UHGV virus genome: UHGV-0322864
DNA length: 40,716 bases
Strand: one strand, 5' to 3'
Origin: a virus
In this document: piece after piece, positions 26,685 to 40,045 of the stretch
How the letters are laid out: each line of letters begins with the position of its first letter
Position numbering within the stretch: the first letter of the stretch is position 1
Position numbers and translations under genes: made by a program
Notes under the pieces: generated by a model
The model's input: the letters and a program-made list of their open reading frames with translations, nothing else
Databases searched by the model: none
What the model was told of the DNA's origin: nothing

Positions 26685-27149
26685 AATTCTTCTCCTCTGA
26701 ATAAGAGTATAAAGGGCACATCATAAGACCTACCCGTAAAGGCCACCTCATACCAACAACCCGTGTACGCTGATAAAGGGAAGAGGTTTAAAGGGGACTT
26801 CATGTTAAGGCACCTTCATAAAGACCATGTCACGTTAAGGCCTATCCATCCATGTGCTGTGTTTAAGCTTACCACATTTACTACATCTCCAAGTGGACTT
26901 ATAAAGGGTGTGAACTCTTTCATCCCCGTAAGCTTTGCGTATCCGATAGTACTCATGATCACATTTGAATTGCTTAATGATTAACTTAATTTTCCACATA
27001 AGTTCTCTTTCAACCTTATATATAAGAGTTTAAAATTCTGATTTGACCGAGTGTGCCTAGCCGCTTCCCGCGCGTTTCCTAAAAAGGGGGAGTCCTCATT
27101 TAAAAAAGGGTTATTGGCAATGCCTTTACACCTCTCCCCAACGTTCCAA

Positions 27150-27650
27150 CCTTCCCCGTGCCTACTCCCCGTTATTCTTTCCCCGTGTATACTACCCAAT
27201 ACATTACCTACCCGTTTATTTAGTTCCCCTTTAAAGAGTGAGAGAAAGGCTAGACTCTGATAAGGCGTAGTCATAGTGACAATAAGAGAGCTAATAATAC
27301 CCATAAGTAATAGCCCACATCCCCCATAGTTTGATTGTAAATAGTTTCAATAGTAATGATTATGAGTGCAATAATGATGTATGTATTAATTAAGTGGAAA
27401 GATTATGTTTGATGTTTATTATTCTTTTAAGAATGATTGTTTTTATTTCTTTTAATACTTTCTTTTTCAGCGTACATGAGCGTAGCGAATGGTCTTTGAT
27501 GTTTGAGTTATACAATTATTTAAGTGGTATATTACTACCGCACTATCTGGCAGTGTTTCCCCGTGGTCTGTCCTGCGGTTGTGTGTTCCCCGTTTGTCCT
27601 GGTCTGTTGGTCTGCTACCCGTAGCGCCAGCGTAACACCCGTAGCGATAG
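27150..27650. repeat. clusters of short direct repeats in the divergent intergenic region
   Basis: Three TCCCCGT copies at 27152-27186; TTCCCCGT(G/T)...GTCCTG twice at 27557-27606; ACCCGTAGCG twice at 27617-27647. Confidence 0.5.
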
Positions 27651-27700
27651 TGTTATAAAGTAACAATAGCTAGTAAGCTGATTCTCTGAGTATGGAAAGT

Positions 27701-27722
27701 TTAACAAATTAAATTCCTTTAG
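27701..27722 (+). repeat. copy 1 of 22-nt motif TTAACAAATTAAATTCCTTTAG
   Basis: About 40 nt upstream of the early promoter at 27760. Confidence 0.5.
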
Positions 27723-27759
27723 TTTTCAGTGAGTTATAGGAAAGTTAGAAAATAAATGT

Positions 27760-27788
27760 TTGACAGTCTTTTCCTTTATTATATAGTT
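27760..27788 (+). promoter_or_regulatory. sigma70-type promoter for the first early operon
   Basis: TTGACA - 16 nt - TATAGT; a second TTGACA lies 30 nt downstream (27790-27795) without a good -10. Confidence 0.6.
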
Positions 27789-27825
27789 GTTGACAGTTAA
27801 TTGAATCTATCTAAGGAATAACGAA

Positions 27826-28317
27826 ATGGCTAAAGCAATGCAGGTAGTTAATCTGGCAAGTTATGCACTGGTTGCAGCTATCGGGGTTAGTGCACTGGTA
27901 ACTACTCTTTCTGATAAGGCTGTTGCTAGTCCTGCTCCTGCAACTGATGCCGCTAGTGTTTTCGTTAGTTCCATCAATAAGGGTTGGATGATTTGCAACG
28001 GTGCGGATAGTGACGGCAATACCATTGTCTTAAAAATGAAGTTTAGCAACGTAACAAATGAAGGCGTTCTCTTTCAGTCTAAAACGCTAGACAATCAGCC
28101 TAACAATGATCTAGTTCTCAAGCGTACCGATAATGATGCGGATATGGTGACATATGGCACTGTACAACGTTATGAAGACGTTAAGGCTGTAACCAATCTA
28201 GTGAGTTATGGTCCGGTTAATGAATCGATGATCGCCACTACCGTTTATAATAACGCTGATAATGCTGTTTATACTGTTCACGTTAATTTAGCCAACTGCA
28301 TTAAGGCTAGTAAGTAA
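27826..28317 (+). CDS. early secreted or membrane-anchored protein
   Basis: 163 aa; N-terminal hydrophobic segment LASYALVAAIGVSALVTTLS; SD AAGGAA; consensus sigma70 promoter ~60 nt upstream. Confidence 0.6.
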   Translation: MAKAMQVVNLASYALVAAIGVSALVTTLSDKAVASPAPATDAASVFVSSINKGWMICNGADSDGNTIVLKMKFSNVTNEGVLFQSKTLDNQPNNDLVLKRTDNDADMVTYGTVQRYEDVKAVTNLVSYGPVNESMIATTVYNNADNAVYTVHVNLANCIKASK

Positions 28318-28342
28318 ATAACCTATTTTCAGGAGTGTAAAA

Positions 28343-28594
28343 ATGGCTATCAAAGAAGTTAAGTTGTCTAATGGCTTTTCTTGTTTTGTTGGTGGGCAAT
28401 CTATCGAGTTTAATATGCGCGATGGTCAGATTATAGTTCCCGTTGTTGCTTTTTGTTCCATGAGCTTTAATGAGGCCAAAAAATGGCTTCAATTGGTGCG
28501 TATTGATATCAACCGCGATGATTTTCGATCAATCTATATTGACGGTGATTTGTCGCTTTCTGGCTTGCTTGAGATTGATTTACCTAAATGGTGA
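28343..28594 (+). CDS. hypothetical early protein (83 aa)
   Basis: ORF with SD AGGAG 8 nt before the ATG. Confidence 0.5.
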   Translation: MAIKEVKLSNGFSCFVGGQSIEFNMRDGQIIVPVVAFCSMSFNEAKKWLQLVRIDINRDDFRSIYIDGDLSLSGLLEIDLPKW

Positions 28595-28613
28595 TAAGAG
28601 GATTGGAAACGTT

Positions 28614-28877
28614 ATGGGGAATGAAACTATTGCGTTAATTGATACGCACAATTACGGTGGCGTTACTTTATCCTTTGATGAATCAATCGACGTTGGCTAT
28701 TTGTCCTTTCTTTCCAAAGGTGAGATACAAAATATCCGCTTTCCCGTTGTTTGTCTGGTGCAGGATTATATAACAGTTGGGAAGTATTTGGCGCAACGTG
28801 GGATTCTTCTGTCGCTGGAAGAAGTGGAACAGATCAGCGTAGCATTTTTTGGCGAGGGTATCAATGAAGAAGAATGA
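28614..28877 (+). CDS. hypothetical early protein (87 aa)
   Basis: Track ORF 28470..28877; the internal ATG at 28614 has SD AAGAGGA and follows the upstream stop, so start is placed there. Confidence 0.5.
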   Translation: MGNETIALIDTHNYGGVTLSFDESIDVGYLSFLSKGEIQNIRFPVVCLVQDYITVGKYLAQRGILLSLEEVEQISVAFFGEGINEEE

Positions 28878-28953
28878 TTATTTTTGGCGTTGCTTGTTCG
28901 TTGTTACAGTGGCGTTATTCGTCGCTGATATACTTTATTCTTACATTCTCTAA
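28864..28953 (+). CDS. possible 29-aa hydrophobic peptide
   Basis: ATG overlapping the upstream stop; MKKNDYFWRCLFVVTVALFVADILYSYIL; below the track size cutoff. Confidence 0.25.
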   Translation: MKKNDYFWRCLFVVTVALFVADILYSYIL

Positions 28954-28969
28954 CTAAAGGTTTATTGCT

Positions 28970-29335
28970 ATGTGGTTTATTAAATTCATCGTTAAAATGG
29001 TTGTAGGCTTCTTTCTGGTCGTTCTTCTGTTAGGTGTCCTGTTATCGGCTATGGGTAGCGTTAAGGCTGCAACGTTTTCCCCTGCTACGGTTGACGGGTT
29101 GCAATGTACCTATCTCGTAGAGAATTACGAAACTGGTAAAAAGTCACCTAAAGTTATTATTTTGCATGTAAATGATTTCGATCATGTACAATCATACGAT
29201 AAAACTATTCAACTGGTAAACGAATCCAATGGTAAACAAATCACGGTCGATCACTTGATGCGCTCATCGTTGACGCTCTTTGATGAGTCCATGAATGAAA
29301 TGGCATCCGGTAACGGTCAATGTGTAAATCCATAG
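28970..29335 (+). CDS. membrane or secreted protein (121 aa)
   Basis: N-terminal TM/signal MWFIKFIVKMVVGFFLVVLLLGVLLSAMG; followed by an intrinsic terminator. Confidence 0.5.
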   Translation: MWFIKFIVKMVVGFFLVVLLLGVLLSAMGSVKAATFSPATVDGLQCTYLVENYETGKKSPKVIILHVNDFDHVQSYDKTIQLVNESNGKQITVDHLMRSSLTLFDESMNEMASGNGQCVNP

Positions 29336-29411
29336 GACTAATCTTTCTCCTGTATTGTGCCGTGGTCATGCCTATGGTCATAATCTATCTGATGCTTTAA
29401 ATCCTTCCTGT

Positions 29412-29439
29412 AAGCCTCCTAGTGAGGCTTTTCTATTTT
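29412..29439 (+). terminator. intrinsic terminator closing the first early operon
   Basis: AAGCCTC-CTAGT-GAGGCTT followed by TTCTATTTT. Confidence 0.6.
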
Positions 29440-29596
29440 CTAAGGTGATTGTATCCCTTACTCCCTTTTAGCTCGTTATAGTGCGTTCTAGGCCGCTAAA
29501 TATCGCTTTACAAGCCATTTTCTATGATGTATCACGCGCTCCCGCTCTTTTATCTTCCCTATAGTGAAAAAGTTTAAAATAATTTGCTTTACCCTA

Positions 29597-29624
29597 TTGC
29601 ATAGCCATAAAACTGGCGTATACT
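29597..29624 (+). promoter_or_regulatory. weaker sigma70-like promoter (P0) of the tandem cluster
   Basis: TTGCAT - 16 nt - TATACT. Confidence 0.35.
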
Positions 29625-29722
29625 GATTTCTATCGGGTACGATGTAAAACATACAAGGCAAGGAAACTTGCCCCGCTCTTTAAAAATCAGGCTAGAAAGT
29701 GAAAATATTCTTAAAAAGAGTA

Positions 29723-29751
29723 TTGACACCAGAAAAAGCCTGATATATAGT
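29723..29751 (+). promoter_or_regulatory. consensus sigma70 promoter P1
   Basis: A-rich UP-like TTAAAAAGAG, then TTGACA - 17 nt - TATAGT. Confidence 0.7.
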
Positions 29752-29867
29752 GAGCATAAGTCAGCGATGACGTGAAATATCCCGCTCTTTAAAAACTTAT
29801 CATCTTGCCCTTTCGCATAGATTCAAGCGAGATAAGGGAACGGAATAAAAGAAGATGATAAAAAGAG

Positions 29868-29895
29868 TTGACAAGCTAACACGGTGTGTTAAGCT
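29868..29895 (+). promoter_or_regulatory. sigma70 promoter P2
   Basis: ATAAAAAGAG then TTGACA - 16 nt - TAAGCT. Confidence 0.5.
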
Positions 29896-30024
29896 ACAAA
29901 TGCAGTAACCGCTCTTTAAAAATATGAATCATAAGTTAAGCCTCACCGCTTAATCTTCAATCAAATATAGCTGATTGATATATCCTCCCAATAAGGGGAG
30001 CGACGAAAAAGATTAAAAAAGTGG

Positions 30025-30053
30025 TTGACAGCTAAAACAGCATGATTCATAAT
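30025..30053 (+). promoter_or_regulatory. sigma70 promoter P3
   Basis: ATTAAAAAAGTGG then TTGACA - 17 nt - CATAAT. Confidence 0.65.
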
Positions 30054-30975
30054 GAGCACTCACTAAGCAAATCATCGCGAAGTGAACAGCGTAACAACGG
30101 CTAACAGTTGCATAGTGTGAGAAAGCACACTGATAGATTTACCGCTCTTTAATAATTTAAACATTCTCCTATATCGGTTGAATATGCTTGATGATAATAA
30201 CCATCGGAAAGCATACCAGATAAAACGGTGTAAGATTCTCTAAACTATCAGAGAAAACAATCTTACAATCCCTTGCTGGAAACGTCACCACTGATAAACG
30301 GATTCATTGAGTGTACGCAAAGACTTAAGCTAATCGCCCACGGTTAAGGGTAGCGGCGGTCATCGCTAACAAGGCGCTACAGTGAAAGAAGTTAATCAGG
30401 GTAGGCAAGCCCGAAGAATTAACGCTCAATTGAGAGCGGCGGGGAGTGGTTAAAAAGTGGCAAATTGCTATTTAACAATAAGGTTTAGTGTGAACGTTTA
30501 CGATGTGAACGGCTTGAGATTCATCACAAGATGAAAGTACATAGTCGGTTTATGTAGTAAACTTGCCGAAAGATATAAAACGTCAGAACATTAGACGGTC
30601 AATGACTCTTTCACAATAGCATCCCGTTGTGGGCGATGGCTAGTGATTGAGAGTTGATACAAAAGGATAGGCGAGAGCGAAAGCAAAGTAGACGATATTG
30701 CCGACGGTTACAATAAACGTAACTAATTAGAGTCGGACGCACTGCCTTATTGTGATGATTGATCATCGCTATCAGGTCGGCTTCGTTTATAGCGACTAAT
30801 TAAAGATACCAGATGAAACATCACGGATAAGGGGGCGGCAAGGTTAACTCCTGATAAGACCGCCCCGCTTACCTATAACTACTTAACAACGAGTGGTTAT
30901 AGTTAAGTTAATAGTGACTTAAACAAGCTCATAGAGAGCGGGGCATAGTGCCCTAACAATTGAAAGGTGAATATC

Positions 30976-31875
30976 ATGGCTAAAGTTTTTAATCTGGTAA
31001 AAGAATCTGGTTTTAACGCACTGGCTAACAACATTCGTAGCAATAACGCGGCGATTAAGCAAGATGTTTCTAACTTCCTGTTAGGCCATTTGCAGCACTT
31101 TCGTAGCAACGGCAAGAAGTTAGATGTATTGCAGTCGGCGGTTGATTTTCTGTTAACCGAACGTTTTCGTGATATGGATGTGATCGCCACTGCAATTACT
31201 TTCTTAACTCCTATCAAGTTTAACACCGATGCGGCAAATGGTCGTAAAAAGTGGATTAATCTGGAAGGTGAGGCGAAAGCGAAAGAAGATGCGAAAGAAG
31301 CGCAAATTAAGGCCAAAATGGAACAAAACCGCGCTCGCTGGTCAAACGCTTTCGAAAACTTTGCTTTAGGTCGTGAAATTGAAGTCGATAACCCTAACTT
31401 TTACAAGGGTTGTAATGACAACGTGGCGGCACACCTGCAAATACCGGCGAAAAACAAGGAAGATTTTAATCAGGATATTTACGCTTTAGTTGAACGCTTG
31501 AATGCAATCCGTATTGAAGCCAAATTACTGGCTGATGAGCGCAACGGCGCAACTAGCGATAACACTATCGCCCTGAGTGAAGAAGTTGGGAAGGTTAAAA
31601 AGTCCTTTGATTCACTCATCAAGAAAGTCACGGCCTCAATGGTAGCGATCTCGGATGATTATCTGATGAACGCATCAAGCAAGGAATTAGAATCACTCGA
31701 TTCATACGCTGATGAAATGGAAAAGACTGTTGCAGCTATGCAGGAGAAGTTAGAAAGTCTGCGCGGTCGTATCTCTTCAACGGTTGCTACCCGTACCGAA
31801 CAAGCGGCGAAAGCAGAAGAGGAAGAAGTGTTGCGTAAAGCGGCTGAAATTATGGCGGCACGTCAAGCGGCATAA
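30976..31875 (+). CDS. hypothetical helical protein (299 aa), first gene after the promoter cluster
   Basis: Track begins at GTG 30967; ATG 30976 with SD AAAGGTGA is preferred; coiled-coil-like C-terminal half; followed by a strong terminator. Confidence 0.6.
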   Translation: MAKVFNLVKESGFNALANNIRSNNAAIKQDVSNFLLGHLQHFRSNGKKLDVLQSAVDFLLTERFRDMDVIATAITFLTPIKFNTDAANGRKKWINLEGEAKAKEDAKEAQIKAKMEQNRARWSNAFENFALGREIEVDNPNFYKGCNDNVAAHLQIPAKNKEDFNQDIYALVERLNAIRIEAKLLADERNGATSDNTIALSEEVGKVKKSFDSLIKKVTASMVAISDDYLMNASSKELESLDSYADEMEKTVAAMQEKLESLRGRISSTVATRTEQAAKAEEEEVLRKAAEIMAARQAA

Positions 31876-31897
31876 GTAAGACAATTTAAATAAACAT

Positions 31898-31932
31898 AAG
31901 GCGCTATCTTAACGGGTAGCGCCTTTTCTTTT
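31898..31932 (+). terminator. intrinsic terminator after the 299-aa gene
   Basis: AAGGCGCTA-TCTTAACGG-TAGCGCCTT followed by TTCTTTT. Confidence 0.7.
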
Positions 31933-31986
31933 ATCAGTGCATTGATTCAGTGCATTAATCAAAGAATCTAATCAAAGGTGACGATC

Positions 31987-32205
31987 ATGTTAATTACACA
32001 TACCACGATCTATAGGAATCTTGTCAACGGTCAACATTACCGCCTATCTAAAAAGTATGGCGTTGAATGTAAATGTGTTATTACCGGTGAATGGTATCCG
32101 TCACCAATGAAGATTGAAACGTTGGAACGTGAAGCGATCAGCTATATTATCACGCAAGAAACAACGTTAGGCCGTATCTTAAGAAAGTTGGGATTAAGAA
32201 AATGA
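31987..32205 (+). CDS. hypothetical small protein (72 aa)
   Basis: ATG 31987 with the same AAAGGTGA-N5-ATG initiation region as the 30976 gene. Confidence 0.45.
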   Translation: MLITHTTIYRNLVNGQHYRLSKKYGVECKCVITGEWYPSPMKIETLEREAISYIITQETTLGRILRKLGLRK

Positions 32206-32426
32206 TATTCAGTAGCAATTTTGGCAAGTGTCCTATTTGTGAGAAACATCGCAGCACGGGAAACCATCGCAAATGTAGTAAGATATTACAGCGCCAACGT
32301 GATAACAATCATTGGGATACTGTACACACTAACCAGCGTAAAGAAGAAGTTAGGAAAATGGCTGTTAAAGCGTCATTTGCTCAATCCACCCGTATTGAAC
32401 ATATTCAAAGGTATCAAGCATTATGA
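32202..32426 (+). CDS. small basic Zn-finger-like protein
   Basis: ATGA overlap with the upstream stop; CPICEKHRSTGNHRKC motif; 74 aa. Confidence 0.45.
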   Translation: MIFSSNFGKCPICEKHRSTGNHRKCSKILQRQRDNNHWDTVHTNQRKEEVRKMAVKASFAQSTRIEHIQRYQAL

Positions 32427-32632
32427 TCACTAACATTTCAGAATTTAAGAAAGCACCTTCCCGCTTGTTAGGCCGTCGTGTTGTATATCTTTATAGCAAT
32501 AAAGGTAAATGTACAACCGGACGAATTACAACGGTGAGTAGTGCTAACAAGAAGCTGTTAAAGTTATGCGTGGCTATGGATGATGGTACAATCCTGCTAC
32601 GCAGTTGGAAGTCATTTAGTTTACTCGATTAA
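32423..32632 (+). CDS. hypothetical small protein (69 aa)
   Basis: ATGA overlap with the upstream gene. Confidence 0.45.
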   Translation: MITNISEFKKAPSRLLGRRVVYLYSNKGKCTTGRITTVSSANKKLLKLCVAMDDGTILLRSWKSFSLLD

Positions 32633-32649
32633 GTTATTTGTTCAAGCCT

Positions 32650-32678
32650 GTCGCCTTGATGGGCTTGCCCGATATAAT
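32650..32678 (+). promoter_or_regulatory. possible promoter with perfect -10 TATAAT
   Basis: TATAAT at 32673-32678, 24 nt upstream of the GTG start at 32702; weak -35. Confidence 0.3.
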
Positions 32679-32701
32679 TTATCACTGAAAGGAATAAGAT
32701 T

Positions 32702-33145
32702 GTGGCTAAATCTAAAATCAGCATGAAGGGCGGGCGTTGTTTTGCTATCTCTGAACTAGAGAAAGAGAAATCGAAGGCAACTAATCACGTTAGTAAGCGT
32801 AGTTTAAAACGTCGTGCTGCAAAGGCTGAGGCTGAATCCCATGTTCCTTCCAGTGTGGCAAAACGTGTAGGCCATCGTGTCCATCGTGCTGATGCGTTAT
32901 TATTAGCCGATCATAAACGTTCTTTATTAAAGAGCGGGGGAGCTAAAACAGAAGAAGAGAAGAAGTTAGAAATCTTCTGTAATGGTCGCACCCGTGGTAA
33001 ACAGAAGTTTAAAGGTAGCACGAAAGACCCGCAGGCTTTCCCTAAGACAAGTCAGTGTGCGCCTGATGTTTTCTACGCAGACAGTAAACACAAGTGGGGA
33101 GTTGAAAAATACATTGACCCCATCAAAGAGGCAAGGGTTAAGTAG
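32702..33145 (+). CDS. highly basic K/R-rich protein (nucleic-acid-binding candidate)
   Basis: GTG start with SD GAAAGGAA; 147 aa, about 25 percent K+R. Confidence 0.5.
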   Translation: MAKSKISMKGGRCFAISELEKEKSKATNHVSKRSLKRRAAKAEAESHVPSSVAKRVGHRVHRADALLLADHKRSLLKSGGAKTEEEKKLEIFCNGRTRGKQKFKGSTKDPQAFPKTSQCAPDVFYADSKHKWGVEKYIDPIKEARVK

Positions 33146-33162
33146 TAGGAATATAACCCCCT

Positions 33163-33182
33163 CTTTTAGTACTATGACGCTC
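33163..33182 (+). repeat. copy 1 of 20-nt motif CTCTTTTAGTACTATGACGC
   Basis: Lies 18 nt after the stop of the basic-protein gene; 19/20 identical to the copy at the window end. Confidence 0.6.
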
Positions 33183-33310
33183 TTTCTGTCGCGTCGTGCC
33201 CTCTCCCCATTTGAAGCTTCCGCATAGCCGCCTTTGAGCGGCTTTTGTCGTTGCCGTAAGCGCATTTACGAGTGTTTTTACTGCAATAGTCATGTATTGC
33301 TTTCAGGTTT

Positions 33311-33340
33311 GCCCCGGCTACGGCTGGGGCTTTTTTATGC
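33311..33340 (+). terminator. strong intrinsic terminator
   Basis: GCCCCGGC-TACG-GCTGGGGC followed by TTTTTTAT. Confidence 0.75.
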
Positions 33341-33385
33341 CCGTAAAACAGGAGGTATCAAGTTCTGATAACAACGGCACAGCTA

Positions 33386-33775
33386 ATGTTGACATTGACT
33401 ATTTATTATGAGGCAGGGAATCAGCCAACCGCATGTAAGGCGTTAGTTGCGGATACCGTGATAAATAGAATGGCCCAACGAAAACTGACCGCTGAACAGG
33501 TGATAAGACAAAAGAACCAGTTTGAGTGGATTCCGGTACTATTAAAACAGGAGAAACCTTATAAACGTTATGTAAAGCTGATTCGTGATAAAAATCCGAT
33601 GACTAAGCAAGCCATTGGAGAAAGCGAGCGGCTGGCTAAACGTGCCCTTAAGAAGAATTATGTTCCGCTGTATAGTGGGACTTACTTTCAGAGTAAGAGC
33701 GAAGGGGTGCCAAAATGGTATGCCAATCCTATGTATTGTGGTGATTTAGTGTTCGATAATAGCTCTAGGGAATAA
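33386..33775 (+). CDS. SleB/CwlJ-like cell-wall hydrolase (Hydrolase_2-like) domain protein
   Basis: N-terminal YYEAGNQPTACKALVADTVINRMA resembles the conserved (Y)AEARGE...VA.VI.NR signature; 129 aa; preceded by a strong terminator. Confidence 0.55.
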   Translation: MLTLTIYYEAGNQPTACKALVADTVINRMAQRKLTAEQVIRQKNQFEWIPVLLKQEKPYKRYVKLIRDKNPMTKQAIGESERLAKRALKKNYVPLYSGTYFQSKSEGVPKWYANPMYCGDLVFDNSSRE

Positions 33776-33789
33776 TCACTAGTGCCAGA

Positions 33790-33812
33790 TTTGACAAACT
33801 AAATTCCTTTAT
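33790..33812 (+). repeat. copy 2 of the 22-nt motif (TTGACAAACTAAATTCCTTTAT)
   Basis: Immediately after the SleB-like gene stop, at the 5' edge of the next intergenic region; 19/22 identical to copy 1. Confidence 0.5.
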
Positions 33813-33974
33813 AAACCAACCACTTAGTAAATTTATTGAAAAAGATGGTAGTATTCTGGGACTATAGGTAATGCTCTGTATATAGACCCTTTGAAAATTT
33901 CTTAGAAAATAAGTTTACTAAATATAACTTACTTAAATAATATTACTTTTAATCTCTGATAAAGGGTAAATAAT

Positions 33975-34271
33975 ATGACTTTAGAAGTATATAAATTCCT
34001 TTTTGTAAGCTGTTTAACTATCAGCGTTCTAGGATTTATTGTTCTCAGAAACAAAGCAGCAGGCTGGGAGAGAATGTATAAATCCCTAGTCCGAGTGGAT
34101 AAGATGTATAATGAGAAAGTTAAAGTAACACTCAACGATCTTATTATGCAAGTTGAAGACAGAAACAAACGTCTTCAGAATCTCAATCATGAAGTGTTGC
34201 GCCTTGCTCGTGCTAATGAAGACTTGCGAGTGGCTATTGCTAAGCAGCAGGGGATTAATAGTGAAAGTTAA
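33975..34271 (+). CDS. N-terminal TM plus coiled-coil protein (i-spanin-like or membrane effector)
   Basis: TM FLFVSCLTISVLGFIVL then helical heptad-like NEKVKVTLNDLIMQVEDRNKRLQNLNHEVLRLARANEDLRVAIAK. Confidence 0.5.
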   Translation: MTLEVYKFLFVSCLTISVLGFIVLRNKAAGWERMYKSLVRVDKMYNEKVKVTLNDLIMQVEDRNKRLQNLNHEVLRLARANEDLRVAIAKQQGINSES

Positions 34272-34494
34272 TATTAAGCCTGATCATACTACACTCCGTT
34301 TAAATAACATGAGGCCGGGCGCTCTCTTTCATTTTAAAGGTTCTCTCTATATCAGAACCGGATTAACAACTGACTATCACGTCAATTGTGTTAACGTGGT
34401 TTCTGGAGAGCTTATTGTTATCAGCAAAAACGAAGTCTGCCAAGTGCGCAATGATCTCCACATAACTAACATAGAGGATAAAGATGAAGATTGA
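34261..34494 (+). CDS. small early protein, paralog family member a
   Basis: Track ORF 34153..34494 overlaps the upstream gene; GTG 34261 with SD AGGGGA is in frame and gives a 77-aa product with the family motifs (PGALF...LYIR...CVNVVSGEL). Confidence 0.45.
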   Translation: MKVNIKPDHTTLRLNNMRPGALFHFKGSLYIRTGLTTDYHVNCVNVVSGELIVISKNEVCQVRNDLHITNIEDKDED

Positions 34495-39733: not shown

Positions 39734-40045
39734 ATGAAAGCTCGAAGAACTATATGGACTCCGATACAGATTGAAAATCTTCGGAGATTAATCAAAGAGT
39801 ACTCTGTTCAAGAGGTTGCTAAGATTATGAATGTAACGGAGAATGCAGTTAATACAGCTTGCACTAAGTTCGGTATCTCTAGAGCTGTAATCCGAGTTAA
39901 GTGGTCTAAAGAAGAAGACCAGTTCCTTATCCGTAATGCTGGGTTCATGTCTATTCAGAGAATGGCTGACATGCTCGGTAGAAGTTATGCTGCTGTGCAG
40001 AATAGGGCATGTATGCACCTTAACATTAGCCTAAAACTTAAATAG
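39734..40045 (+). CDS. tandem HTH (Myb/SANT-like) DNA-binding protein, putative regulator
   Basis: Two ~45-aa repeats each starting with Trp and carrying an HTH-like core (WTPIQIENLRRLIKEYSVQEVAKIMNVTENAV; WSKEEDQFLIRNAGFMSIQRMADMLGRSYAAVQNR); SD GGAGGA. Confidence 0.55.
   Translation: MKARRTIWTPIQIENLRRLIKEYSVQEVAKIMNVTENAVNTACTKFGISRAVIRVKWSKEEDQFLIRNAGFMSIQRMADMLGRSYAAVQNRACMHLNISLKLK

What the first reader, a model, noticed from the sequence alone, without database searches (positions are those of the whole stretch)
27701..33812. 22-nt conserved motif TT(A/G)ACAAA(T/C)TAAATTCCTTTA at the upstream edge of two early intergenic regions
Seen in sequence: TTAACAAATTAAATTCCTTTAG (~27701) and TTGACAAACTAAATTCCTTTAT (~33790) are 19/22 identical. 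Both sit at the 5' edge of an intergenic region upstream of an early operon. Inference: a shared regulatory site such as an operator or activator site.
Basis: partly seen in the sequence, partly recalled or inferred. Interest (0 to 1): 0.45.

Follow-up and report, generated by a model that had tools for sequence, protein, structure and literature searches.

The report
Far-upstream element of phage early promoters
The repeated 22-base motif is real: it is the best-conserved piece of a duplicated promoter cassette in a phiEco32-like coliphage, sits about 75-95 bases upstream of predicted transcription starts, and looks most like a binding site for the host DNA-bending protein IHF, a familiar kind of phage promoter accessory, though no binding has been tested.

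Summary
The window is a phiEco32-like (Kuravirus) coliphage. Both motif copies exist (27701-27722, 33791-33812; 19/22 identical; 0.01 expected by chance). Across 14 related genomes the conserved core is AAAnTAAATTyCyTT. phiEco32 has exactly three perfect copies of the 16-base core, all intergenic on the early strand. The window has a degenerate third copy at 29569-29591.

The core ends 38 nt (49 in two phages) upstream of the -35 TTGACA of predicted sigma-70 early promoters. At site 2 it ends 34 nt upstream of a TGGTAG-N18-AATG element resembling the phage gp36-sigma promoter P68. That places the motif at about -94 to -73 in every case.

Paralogous cores are 15/16 identical, against 50-64% for the spacer. 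Just 3' of the motif, all 21 distinct copies carry an IHF-like core (WATCARNNNNTTR, 1-2 mismatches) in one register. The AAATT tract and an invariant TT step lie where lambda attP H' has its A-tract and kink. The best match in lambda's right arm is the region upstream of pL.

Verdict: a DNA-level far-upstream promoter element, probably an IHF-type architectural site. This is a new member of a known kind, with no binding data. More interesting by-products are rrn-type boxA repeats after each spacer promoter.

The parts
27701..27722 (+). Motif copy 1 as reported (TTAACAAATTAAATTCCTTTAG). The family-wide core AAATTAAATTCCTTTA is 27706-27721.
   Evidence: The core is conserved in 10 genomes. The 5' TTAACA is unique to this window.
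27706..27736 (+). Extended element 1: the core plus the IHF-like core TTTCAGTGAGTTA (27724-27736, 1 mismatch to WATCARNNNNTTR). The predicted position is about -89 to -59.
   Evidence: The geometry was compared with lambda attP H'.
27760..27787 (+). Predicted sigma-70 early promoter upstream of the first early gene (phiEco32 gene 128 equivalent): TTGACA-16-TATAGT, 11/12 match. The core of copy 1 ends 38 nt upstream of its -35.
   Evidence: The same promoter is listed for phage SU10 (PMC4281155 Table S2).
33791..33812 (+). Motif copy 2 as reported (TTGACAAACTAAATTCCTTTAT). The core AAACTAAATTCCTTTA is 33796-33811. It starts 16 nt after the stop codon of the cell-wall-hydrolase-like gene.
   Evidence: It is present in all 17 related genomes/contigs examined that cover this region (18 counting the window).
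33796..33826 (+). Extended element 2: the core plus the IHF-like core AACCAACCACTTA (33814-33826, 1 mismatch), in the same register as in copy 1.
33846..33888 (+). gp36-sigma-type promoter-like element TGGTAGTA-N16-AATGCTCTGTATATAGACC. It has the same -35 word and the same TGGTAG-to-AATG spacing as phiEco32 P68, but the -10 consensus TAATGTATATAGA is split by CTCTG. The core of copy 2 ends 34 nt upstream of TGGTAG.
   Evidence: gp36 contacts at -37G and -34A and the AATG at -14 to -11 are from PMC12276001.
29569..29591 (+). Degenerate third copy (AAAGTTTAAAATAATTTGCTTTA), ending 5 nt before a predicted TTGCAT-16-TATACT promoter (29597-29624), which is the canonical UP-element position. phiEco32 and three relatives instead have a perfect or near-perfect copy 38 nt upstream of a TTGACA promoter here.

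Best explanation
The motif is the upstream, A/T-rich half of a roughly 31-35 bp DNA element that belongs to a duplicated early-promoter cassette of phiEco32-like phages.

The element always has the same orientation as transcription. It sits at about -94 to -60 relative to the predicted start of (a) the sigma-70 promoter of the first early operon, (b) in relatives, the first promoter of the non-coding spacer, and (c) a gp36-sigma-like promoter in front of the gene at 33975.

The most likely mechanism is binding of the host DNA-bending protein IHF. In that model the AAATT tract (positions 6-10) would fit the narrow-groove clamp, the invariant T14-T15 and A23-R24 steps would be the two kinks, and WATCAR-N4-TTR (positions 19-31) would be the specific core. 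The sharp bend, centred near -71, would bring upstream DNA back onto RNA polymerase and raise or tune early promoter activity, as reported for lambda pL.

What is shown: the sequence, its conservation, copy number, spacing and resemblance to IHF sites. What is inferred: IHF binding, the bend, and any effect on transcription.
For: 1. Non-random and family-wide. The window has two exact matches against 0.01 expected. The core AAAnTAAATTyCyTT is invariant in 21 distinct copies from 14 genomes of three genera.

2. Copy number. The whole 77.5-kb phiEco32 genome holds exactly three perfect copies of the 16-base core. All are intergenic and on the early strand. Every other hit has at least 2 mismatches and, where checked against the annotation, lies in coding sequence.

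3. Fixed promoter distance. The core ends 38 nt upstream of TTGACA in 7/10 copies of site 1 and 4/4 of site 3, 37 nt in one phage, and 49 nt (+11, one helical turn) in two related phages. At site 2 it ends 34 nt upstream of TGGWAG in 10/10. Using the usual -35 positions of the two sigma types, the core ends at about -74 and -73.

4. Selection. Paralogous cores are 15/16 identical, against 50-64% for the adjoining spacer.

5. IHF-like core. All 21 copies match WATCARNNNNTTR with 1-2 mismatches at position 19, and no other register scores better (best elsewhere 2-5 mismatches; two site-3 copies tie at 2). Downstream of the core, C22, A23 and T30 are invariant and positions 19 and 31 always fit W and R, all consensus-specified, while N positions 25, 26 and 28 vary (N27 is nearly invariant A). 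The background rate of matches with at most 1 mismatch is 0.0014-0.0021 per position per strand.

6. Geometry equals lambda attP H'. There the A-tract starts 14 nt, and the TT step 5 nt, 5' of W. The site elements are described in PMC1874591 and bioRxiv 10.1101/382655.

7. Lambda pL. In lambda's right 18.5 kb the best ungapped match to sites 3 and 2 (24/32 and 22/32; 1/200 and 4/200 shuffled queries reach this) is at -99 to -68 of pL. It has the same orientation and lies 10 nt further from the -35. That region is reported to carry IHF/UP stimulation of pL (Giladi 1998, cited in PMC1784095 and PMC3708714).
Against: - No binding, footprint or transcript data were available. The primary phiEco32 transcription papers are not in the library.
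- The strongest conservation is in the 5' arm (AAAnTAAATTCC), which IHF contacts without base specificity. The specific core never matches perfectly and misses consensus positions: A20 in site 1, T21 or R24 in site 2, T21 and T29 in site 3.
- C11-C12 conservation is not explained by the IHF template.
- Two 68-kb relatives have lost the whole element at site 1 and keep a TTGACA-17-TATATT promoter, so it is dispensable there.
- The window's third copy sits 5 nt from its -35, in the UP-element position. That fits alpha-CTD contact better than IHF.
- The lambda pL segment in the same register has 3 mismatches to the IHF core (my count on the sequence), and I could not verify at nucleotide level where the published IHF and UP sites lie.
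- The paralogs are related by descent, so their agreement is not independent evidence.
- The transcription starts used for the positions are predicted, not mapped.
Confidence: 0.42

Rival explanations
1. The motif is a factor-independent upstream promoter element. It would be a distal UP-like, narrow-groove or curved A/T segment contacted by the RNA polymerase alpha C-terminal domains, or by upstream DNA wrapping. No separate protein would be involved.
For: - The core is A/T-rich with an AAATT tract.
- The window's degenerate third copy lies directly upstream of a -35 (5 nt away), in the canonical UP position.
- All cassettes also carry A-tracts at -40 to -50.
- The lambda pL upstream region that matches best is described as carrying a distal UP element.
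- The 11-bp insertion in SU7 and PAS59 keeps the helical phase.
Against: - The position of sites 1-3 (-94 to -73) is beyond the -38 to -59 range of UP elements (PMC2613000).
- The match to the UP consensus AAAWWTWTTTTNNNAAA is only about 9 of 14 specified positions by my count.
- It does not explain the invariant C22, A23 and T30 downstream of the motif, or why CC at positions 11-12 is conserved.
Confidence: 0.2
2. The motif is the recognition site of a phage-encoded early DNA-binding protein, for example the 103-aa protein with two helix-turn-helix-like segments at 39734-40045 (the likely phiEco32 gp99 counterpart). This protein would activate or shut down the cassettes during infection.
For: - The 5' arm has strong base-specific conservation and is found only in this phage group. 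There were no exact core hits in 600 kb of unrelated metagenomic phage loci.
- An IMG/VR scan for the 18-mer found three kuravirus contigs plus four contigs with no visible relation to them.
- The window encodes an early HTH protein (Sigma70_r4_2, E = 3.8e-7, plus a weaker second HTH-like stretch at residues 63-90).
- The site is non-palindromic, as expected for a monomer with two reading heads.
Against: - There is no evidence linking that protein to this site.
- Known control of phiEco32 transcription is through gp36 and gp79, which act on RNA polymerase (PMC12276001).
- Site 1 serves the very first promoter used on entry, before any phage protein exists, so an activator role there is unlikely, although a repressor role is possible.
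- The resemblance to IHF sites and to lambda pL would be coincidental.
Confidence: 0.15
3. The motif acts in RNA. It would be a diverged boxA-like Nus-factor site, or an anti-Shine-Dalgarno-like pyrimidine stretch (UUCCUUUA) that pairs with downstream ribosome-binding sites.
For: - The upstream module of spacer promoter P_b aligns CGCTCTTTAAAAATCA with the motif's TCCTTTATAAAACA, so the motif and the boxA-like repeats are paralogous.
- CCUUUAU is complementary to AUAAAGG in the ribosome-binding site at 33958-33970.
- Site 2 lies inside the long early transcription unit.
Against: - Only 5/9 positions match GCTCTTTAA.
- Site 1 is upstream of the first early promoter, with no predicted promoter reading into it.
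- The distance is fixed to promoter elements, not to ribosome-binding sites.
- Substitutions in the pyrimidine part (TTCCTTTA, TTTCCTTA, TTCCCTTA) are not matched by compensating changes in the ribosome-binding sites.
- The site-2 intergenic RNA folds no better than shuffles (z = +0.79) and leaves the motif unpaired.
- There is no Rfam match.
Confidence: 0.08
4. The similarity is only a remnant of cassette duplication or gene conversion, with no function of its own.
For: - The three sites are clearly paralogous over about 100 bp.
- This window's site 1 carries a private TTAACA patch that makes it look more like site 2, which hints at sequence exchange.
- Two relatives lost site 1 entirely.
Against: - The core stays at 15/16 while the rest of the cassette has drifted to 50-64%.
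- It is invariant across three genera whose flanks differ by many substitutions and indels.
- The downstream invariant positions coincide with a known protein-binding consensus.
Confidence: 0.12

Closest known systems
Upstream region of the lambda pL promoter (IHF site L1 and distal UP element; Giladi et al. 1998, Mol Microbiol 30:443)
   Same: - It is an A/T-rich element far upstream of a strong sigma-70 early phage promoter, in the same orientation.
- The 11-mer AAAATAAATTC is shared, with 24/32 ungapped identity to phiEco32 site 3 and 22/32 to the window's site 2.
- It is the best match in lambda's right arm.
- Stimulation there is attributed to IHF bending plus alpha-CTD contact.
   Different: - In lambda it lies 10 nt further from the -35 (53 against 43 nt from the 11-mer).
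- The lambda segment fits the IHF core less well in this register (3 mismatches).
- Lambda has one copy next to operators, whereas here there are three copies in a virulent phage with no operators.
- The nucleotide-level map of the lambda sites could not be checked here.
Canonical IHF site, lambda attP H'
   Same: - All four described elements are present in the same register: an A-type narrow-groove tract starting 14 nt 5' of W, a TT step 5 nt 5' of W, the WATCAR core, and TTR four bases on.
   Different: - The core has 1-2 mismatches in every copy.
- The tract is TAAATT rather than A6.
- The function would be transcriptional rather than recombinational.
- Binding is untested.
UP element of rrnB P1 and other strong promoters
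   Same: - It is an A/T-rich, orientation-specific upstream sequence.
- The window's degenerate third copy lies in the UP position.
   Different: - Sites 1-3 lie at -94 to -73, outside the -59 to -38 range.
- The consensus match is weak.
Known phiEco32 and SU10 early sigma-70 promoters and gp36 promoters (Pavlova et al. 2012; PMC4281155; PMC12276001)
   Same: - The motif accompanies promoters already listed for SU10: one upstream of the first early gene and the spacer promoters.
- At site 2 it accompanies a sequence built like the gp36 promoter P68.
   Different: - None of the papers I could read mentions a conserved element upstream of -60.
- No promoter is listed upstream of the gene 116 equivalent.

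Membership tests
IHF binding site | 13-bp core WATCARNNNNTTR | tested here: met
   The window has 27724 TTTCAGTGAGTTA and 33814 AACCAACCACTTA, one mismatch each. All 21 family copies have 1-2 mismatches in the same register. The background rate for at most 1 mismatch is 0.0014-0.0021 per position per strand. None is a perfect match.
IHF binding site | A/T-rich (A-tract) element in the 5' half, about 8 bp from the core | tested here: met
   TAAATT occupies positions 5-10 and W is at position 19. This is the same offset as A6 to TATCAA in lambda attP H'. The element is described.
IHF binding site | Two AA/TT steps 9 bp apart at the kink positions | tested here: met
   T14-T15 is invariant and A23 is invariant, followed by a purine at position 24 in 17 of 21 copies. 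The feature is described in PMC1874591.
IHF binding site | Nanomolar binding and a bend of about 160 degrees by IHF | not testable with these tools
   This needs EMSA, footprinting or circular permutation.
UP element (alpha-CTD site) | Location between -59 and -38 | tested here: not met
   Sites 1 and 2 lie at about -94 to -73. Only the degenerate copy at 29569-29591 is in the UP position.
UP element (alpha-CTD site) | Match to the consensus AAAWWTWTTTTNNNAAA | tested here: inconclusive
   About 9 of 14 specified positions match, by manual comparison. The consensus is quoted from memory (Estrem 1998).
Repressor operator | Overlap with the core promoter and, usually, dyad symmetry | tested here: not met
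   The motif ends 38 nt upstream of the -35. It has no dyad beyond TAAA/TTTA and only one orientation.
sigma-70 promoter (TTGACA of site 2) | A -10 hexamer 16-18 nt downstream of the -35 | tested here: not met
   The only -10-like hexamer (TATAAA) is 13 nt after TTGACA. The promoter scan does not call it. Sites 1 and 3 lack the TTGACA.
boxA (NusB/NusE) antitermination site | GCTCTT(T)A core on the transcript downstream of a promoter | tested here: not met
   Only 5/9 positions match GCTCTTTAA. Site 1 is upstream of the first early promoter. True boxA-like repeats are separate elements at 29675-30152.

The most novel reading that the evidence does not exclude
The motif is the operator of a so far unrecognised phage-encoded regulator, for instance the tandem-HTH early protein at 39734-40045. 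That regulator would coordinate two sigma-70 early promoters with a gp36-type promoter, adding a DNA-site-specific layer to a phage thought to be timed only by the gp36 sigma factor and the polymerase-binding protein gp79.
Probability: 0.15. Interest if true: 0.6.

Novelty: new member of a known kind. Interest (0 to 1): 0.33.

Why it matters
phiEco32 is a model for phage takeover of bacterial RNA polymerase. Its relatives (ES17, SU10, the BASEL Bas87-94 phages) are used in therapy and engineering work.

A conserved far-upstream element would mean that the strength or growth-phase dependence of the very first phage promoters is set partly by host architecture (IHF levels rise in slow growth) and not only by the -35 and -10 hexamers. 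That matters for predicting early expression and for placing payloads.

The finding also points to a candidate extra promoter in front of the gene at 33975. Together with the boxA repeats, it points to a testable model in which the short first operon is terminated while the spacer promoters launch antiterminated transcripts.

In itself, an IHF-like site upstream of a phage early promoter is an ordinary kind of feature.

Tried and rejected
- **Site 2 as a sigma-70 promoter.** The -10-like TATAAA is only 13 nt from TTGACA, and sites 1 and 3 lack the -35.
- **Other sigma or factor consensus sequences, checked by eye from memory.** I compared sigma-54, sigma-E, Fis, CRP, ArcA and the H-NS nucleation site. 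None gave a consistent match across the three sites.
- **RNA element.** Rfam gave nothing at E <= 1. No tRNA or tmRNA was found. The site-2 intergenic RNA folds no better than shuffles. There are no compensatory changes with the ribosome-binding sites.
- **boxA membership.** Only 5/9 positions match, and site 1 has the wrong position.
- **Wider distribution.** The IMG/VR pattern scan gave three kuravirus contigs and four contigs with no visible relation to them. The protein-anchored IMG/VR scan gave four kuravirus loci. The metagenome scan added eight close relatives, and 72 distant hydrolase loci had no core motif. Salmonella phage 7-11's right end has nothing similar.
- **Literature.** The primary phiEco32 papers (Savalia 2008, Pavlova 2012) are not held. 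Searches for phiEco32 with antitermination or boxA, and for Kuravirus or phiEco32 with IHF terms, turned up nothing relevant among the papers listed. The nucleotide map of the lambda pL IHF and UP sites could not be retrieved.
- **Not attempted.** I did not model DNA curvature or score with a curated IHF weight matrix, because none was available offline.

Full report
**What the window is**

Megablast of 27300-34300 finds about 100 Escherichia and Shigella phages of the phiEco32 group (Kuravirus and allied genera, Gordonclarkvirinae) at 90-95% identity. The window is the reverse complement of the phiEco32 record. Structural genes run on the - strand up to 27304. The early genes run on the + strand from 27826.

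phiEco32 uses host sigma-70 RNA polymerase for early genes. It uses its own sigma factor gp36, helped by gp79, for middle and late genes (PMC12276001). For the close relative SU10, the published list of early promoters has one upstream of the first early gene and three in a long non-coding spacer (PMC4281155 text and Table S2). In the window these are TTGACA at 27760, 29723, 29868 and 30025.

**The observation**

Both 22-mers are present at 27701-27722 and 33791-33812 and are 19/22 identical. The degenerate pattern has two matches in the window against 0.01 expected from shuffles.

Site 2 begins 16 nt after a stop codon. Site 1 lies well inside a 521-nt divergent intergenic region, 125 nt before the ATG.

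**What is conserved**

I collected the homologous regions from phiEco32, NJ01, 4E8, SU7, ECBP2, EP335, PAS59, NC-B and several IMG/VR and metagenome contigs.

- Site 2 is present in every one of them.
- Site 1 is present in ten genomes, but it reads TTAGTA where this window has TTAACA.
- phiEco32, an IMG/VR contig, EP335 and a metagenome contig have a third copy (site 3) in the spacer.
- The shared core is AAAnTAAATTyCyTT, invariant at 11 of its 15 positions in 21 distinct sequences.
- In the complete phiEco32 genome the 16-mer AAAnTAAATTCCTTTA occurs exactly three times without mismatch. All three are on the early strand in intergenic DNA. The remaining hits have at least 2 mismatches and, where checked against the annotation, lie in coding sequence.
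- The window lacks the perfect site 3 but has a degenerate relative at 29569-29591, shared with 4E8, ECBP2 and a further contig (MAUZ).
- Two 68-kb relatives have a deletion that removes the whole element at site 1 and still have a good promoter.

**Relation to promoters**

The three sites are the 5' ends of paralogous cassettes of about 100 bp.

- The core ends 38 nt before the -35 TTGACA at site 1 (7 of 10 genomes) and at site 3 (4 of 4).
- It ends 37 nt before in ECBP2 and 49 nt before in SU7 and PAS59. The latter two share an 11-bp insertion, which is one helical turn.
- At site 2 the corresponding place holds no sigma-70 promoter. It holds TGGTAG (TGGAAG in the divergent clade) 34 nt after the core in 10 of 10 genomes, followed 18 nt later by AATG.
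- That is the -35 word and the spacing of the phiEco32 gp36 promoter P68. It fits the gp36 contacts at -37G and -34A and the AATG at -14 to -11 seen by cryo-EM.
- The usual -10 TAATGTATATAGA is interrupted, however: TAATG-CTCTG-TATATAGA.

With the standard geometry of the two promoter types, the core ends at about -74 (site 1, start predicted near 27795) and -73 (site 2, start predicted near 33884). The starts are predictions, since I could not read the primer-extension paper.

**Evidence of constraint**

Between paralogs the core is 15/16 identical. The sequence between core and -35 is 50-64% identical even after optimal gapping. Between genera the flanks upstream of about -125 are riddled with indels, while the block from the motif to the promoter is kept.

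In the site 2 spacer the motif block is one of three strongly conserved blocks. The others are TGGWAG and GGTAATG..CTGTATATAGACC.

**What it resembles**

I numbered positions from the first A of the core. All three paralog families then share A19, C22, A23 and T30, with R at 31. This is the pattern of the IHF core WATCARNNNNTTR placed at positions 19-31.

- The window copies have one mismatch each (27724 TTTCAGTGAGTTA, 33814 AACCAACCACTTA).
- All 21 copies have 1-2 mismatches, and no other register within 8 nt scores better (best elsewhere 2-5 mismatches; two site-3 copies tie at 2).
- Matches of that quality occur at 0.14-0.21% of positions per strand.
- The unspecified positions 25, 26 and 28 differ between families (TGAG, CCAC and others), although position 27 is nearly always A. 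That is what selection on the specified positions would give.

A canonical IHF site also has an A-tract in its 5' half and two AA/TT steps nine bp apart where the prolines intercalate (PMC1874591; bioRxiv 10.1101/382655). In lambda attP H', read from the lambda record, the A-tract starts 14 nt and the TT step 5 nt 5' of the W. In the motif, TAAATT occupies positions 5-10 and the invariant TT positions 14-15, which are exactly those offsets.

I then looked at the classical case of IHF acting far upstream of a phage early promoter, lambda pL. Its upstream region contains AAAATAAATTC at -99 to -89 and matches phiEco32 site 3 at 24 of 32 ungapped positions.

- In the right 18.5 kb of lambda, on both strands, this is the best match for site 3 and for the window's site 2 (22/32). 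Only 1/200 and 4/200 shuffled queries do as well.
- For site 1 it is not distinguished: 19/32, below the best hit elsewhere of 20/32.
- The lambda element lies 10 nt further from the -35.
[quoted passage not shown] I could not check which nucleotides were mapped.

**Weaknesses of the IHF reading**

- The part of the site that IHF reads specifically is the less conserved part.
- No copy matches the core perfectly.
- The CC at positions 11-12 is unexplained.
- The element is dispensable in two relatives.
- The degenerate third copy in the window sits in the UP-element position, not at -80.

Hence I give the DNA-level far-upstream element reading good odds, and IHF as the factor about 0.4. The main rivals are a factor-independent UP-like or curved segment and a phage-encoded binding protein. 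The window does encode an early 103-aa protein with an HTH segment matching sigma-70 region 4 and a weaker second HTH-like stretch (39734-40045).

**RNA-level readings are disfavoured**

- Site 1 is upstream of the first early promoter.
- The distance is kept to promoter elements, not to ribosome-binding sites.
- Changes in the pyrimidine stretch are not compensated.
- The site 2 RNA is not structured (z = +0.79).
- Rfam finds nothing.

**Comparison with what is known, and novelty**

The promoters themselves are known. In the papers I could read, no element upstream of -60 and no promoter before the gene 116 equivalent is described.

As a kind of thing, an IHF/UP-type upstream element of a phage early promoter is well known. 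I therefore rate it as a new member of a known kind, of modest interest.

**By-products**

The ORF-free spacer (29336-30966) holds four predicted promoters. Each is followed within roughly 10-85 nt by GCTCTTTAA, which is the core of the rrn and lambda boxA antiterminator.

- The copy at 30144 is 15/16 identical to the rrnB leader boxA GCTCTTTAACAATTTA.
- Two to four copies are present on the early strand in all 13 genomes examined.
- The first early operon has no such element and ends at a terminator (29412). The long early unit crosses several predicted terminators at 31898, 33226, 33311, 35979 and 39527.

This suggests rrn-type, Nus-factor-dependent antitermination of early transcription. 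I found no mention of it in searches for phiEco32 with boxA or antitermination.

Noticed in passing
window 29544-30152 (+), exact copies at 29675, 29784, 29911, 30144; variant at 29544: There are four exact copies of GCTCTTTAA, the core of the rrn and lambda boxA antiterminator. Each lies roughly 10-85 nt downstream of one of the four predicted sigma-70 promoters of the ORF-free spacer. The 30144 copy is 15/16 identical to the E. coli rrnB leader boxA (GCTCTTTAACAATTTA). Two to four copies occur on the early strand in all 13 related genomes checked. The first early operon lacks one and ends at a terminator, while the long early unit crosses at least five predicted terminators. This suggests Nus-dependent antitermination of early transcripts. 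No paper in the library combines phiEco32 with boxA.
   Followed up: partly
window 33846-33888 (+): This is a gp36-sigma-type promoter-like sequence upstream of the gene at 33975. It has the same TGGTAGTA word and the same TGGTAG-to-AATG spacing as phiEco32 P68. Its -10 consensus is split by a 5-nt insert (4 nt in the SU7/4E8 clade). Both halves are invariant across genera. No promoter is listed here for SU10.
   Followed up: partly
window 29336-30966: This 1.6-kb stretch has no ORF of 50 aa or more on the + strand, yet carries four promoters. Its 3' 800 nt (about 30150-30966) is nearly identical in phiEco32. It has no Rfam or tRNA hit. It could encode non-coding RNA or serve in DNA entry.
   Followed up: no
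window 27701-27706: Site 1 reads TTAACA only in this window. All nine other genomes with site 1 read TTAGTA. The two changes make it resemble site 2 (TTGACA) and create TTTAACAA, as in rrn boxA. This could be a short gene-conversion patch or chance.
   Followed up: no
window about 27059-27251 (-) and ORF 26981-27304: The phiEco32 terminal repeat begins at about window 27251 on the - strand...CTCACTCTTTAAAGGGG matches phiEco32 positions 1-21 and 77362 onward. The window therefore spans the genome ends with the 193-bp repeat collapsed, and a 107-aa ORF overlaps it.
   Followed up: no
window 27540-27660 (+): This is a repeat-rich, G+C-richer segment between the terminal repeat and site 1 (CCCGTAGCG twice, GTCTG/GGTCTG several times). 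It is highly variable with indels among relatives. It may be related to packaging or replication.
   Followed up: no
window 33988-34003 (+): TATATAAATTCCTTTT, a near copy of the core, lies inside the first codons of the gene at 33975 (M T L E V Y K F L F). It varies synonymously in the divergent clade, so it is probably coincidental.
   Followed up: partly
whole window: ARAGORN finds no tRNA. phiEco32, SU7, 4E8 and EP335 all carry a tRNA-Arg in the homologous early region. This phage may lack it.
   Followed up: no
L023 1680-2270 and L024 (metagenome contigs of about 68 kb): These relatives have a rearranged right end. The first early promoter is TTGACA-17-TATATT, and the motif plus the IHF-like core are deleted as one unit. 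They are natural deletion mutants, useful for testing function.
   Followed up: partly
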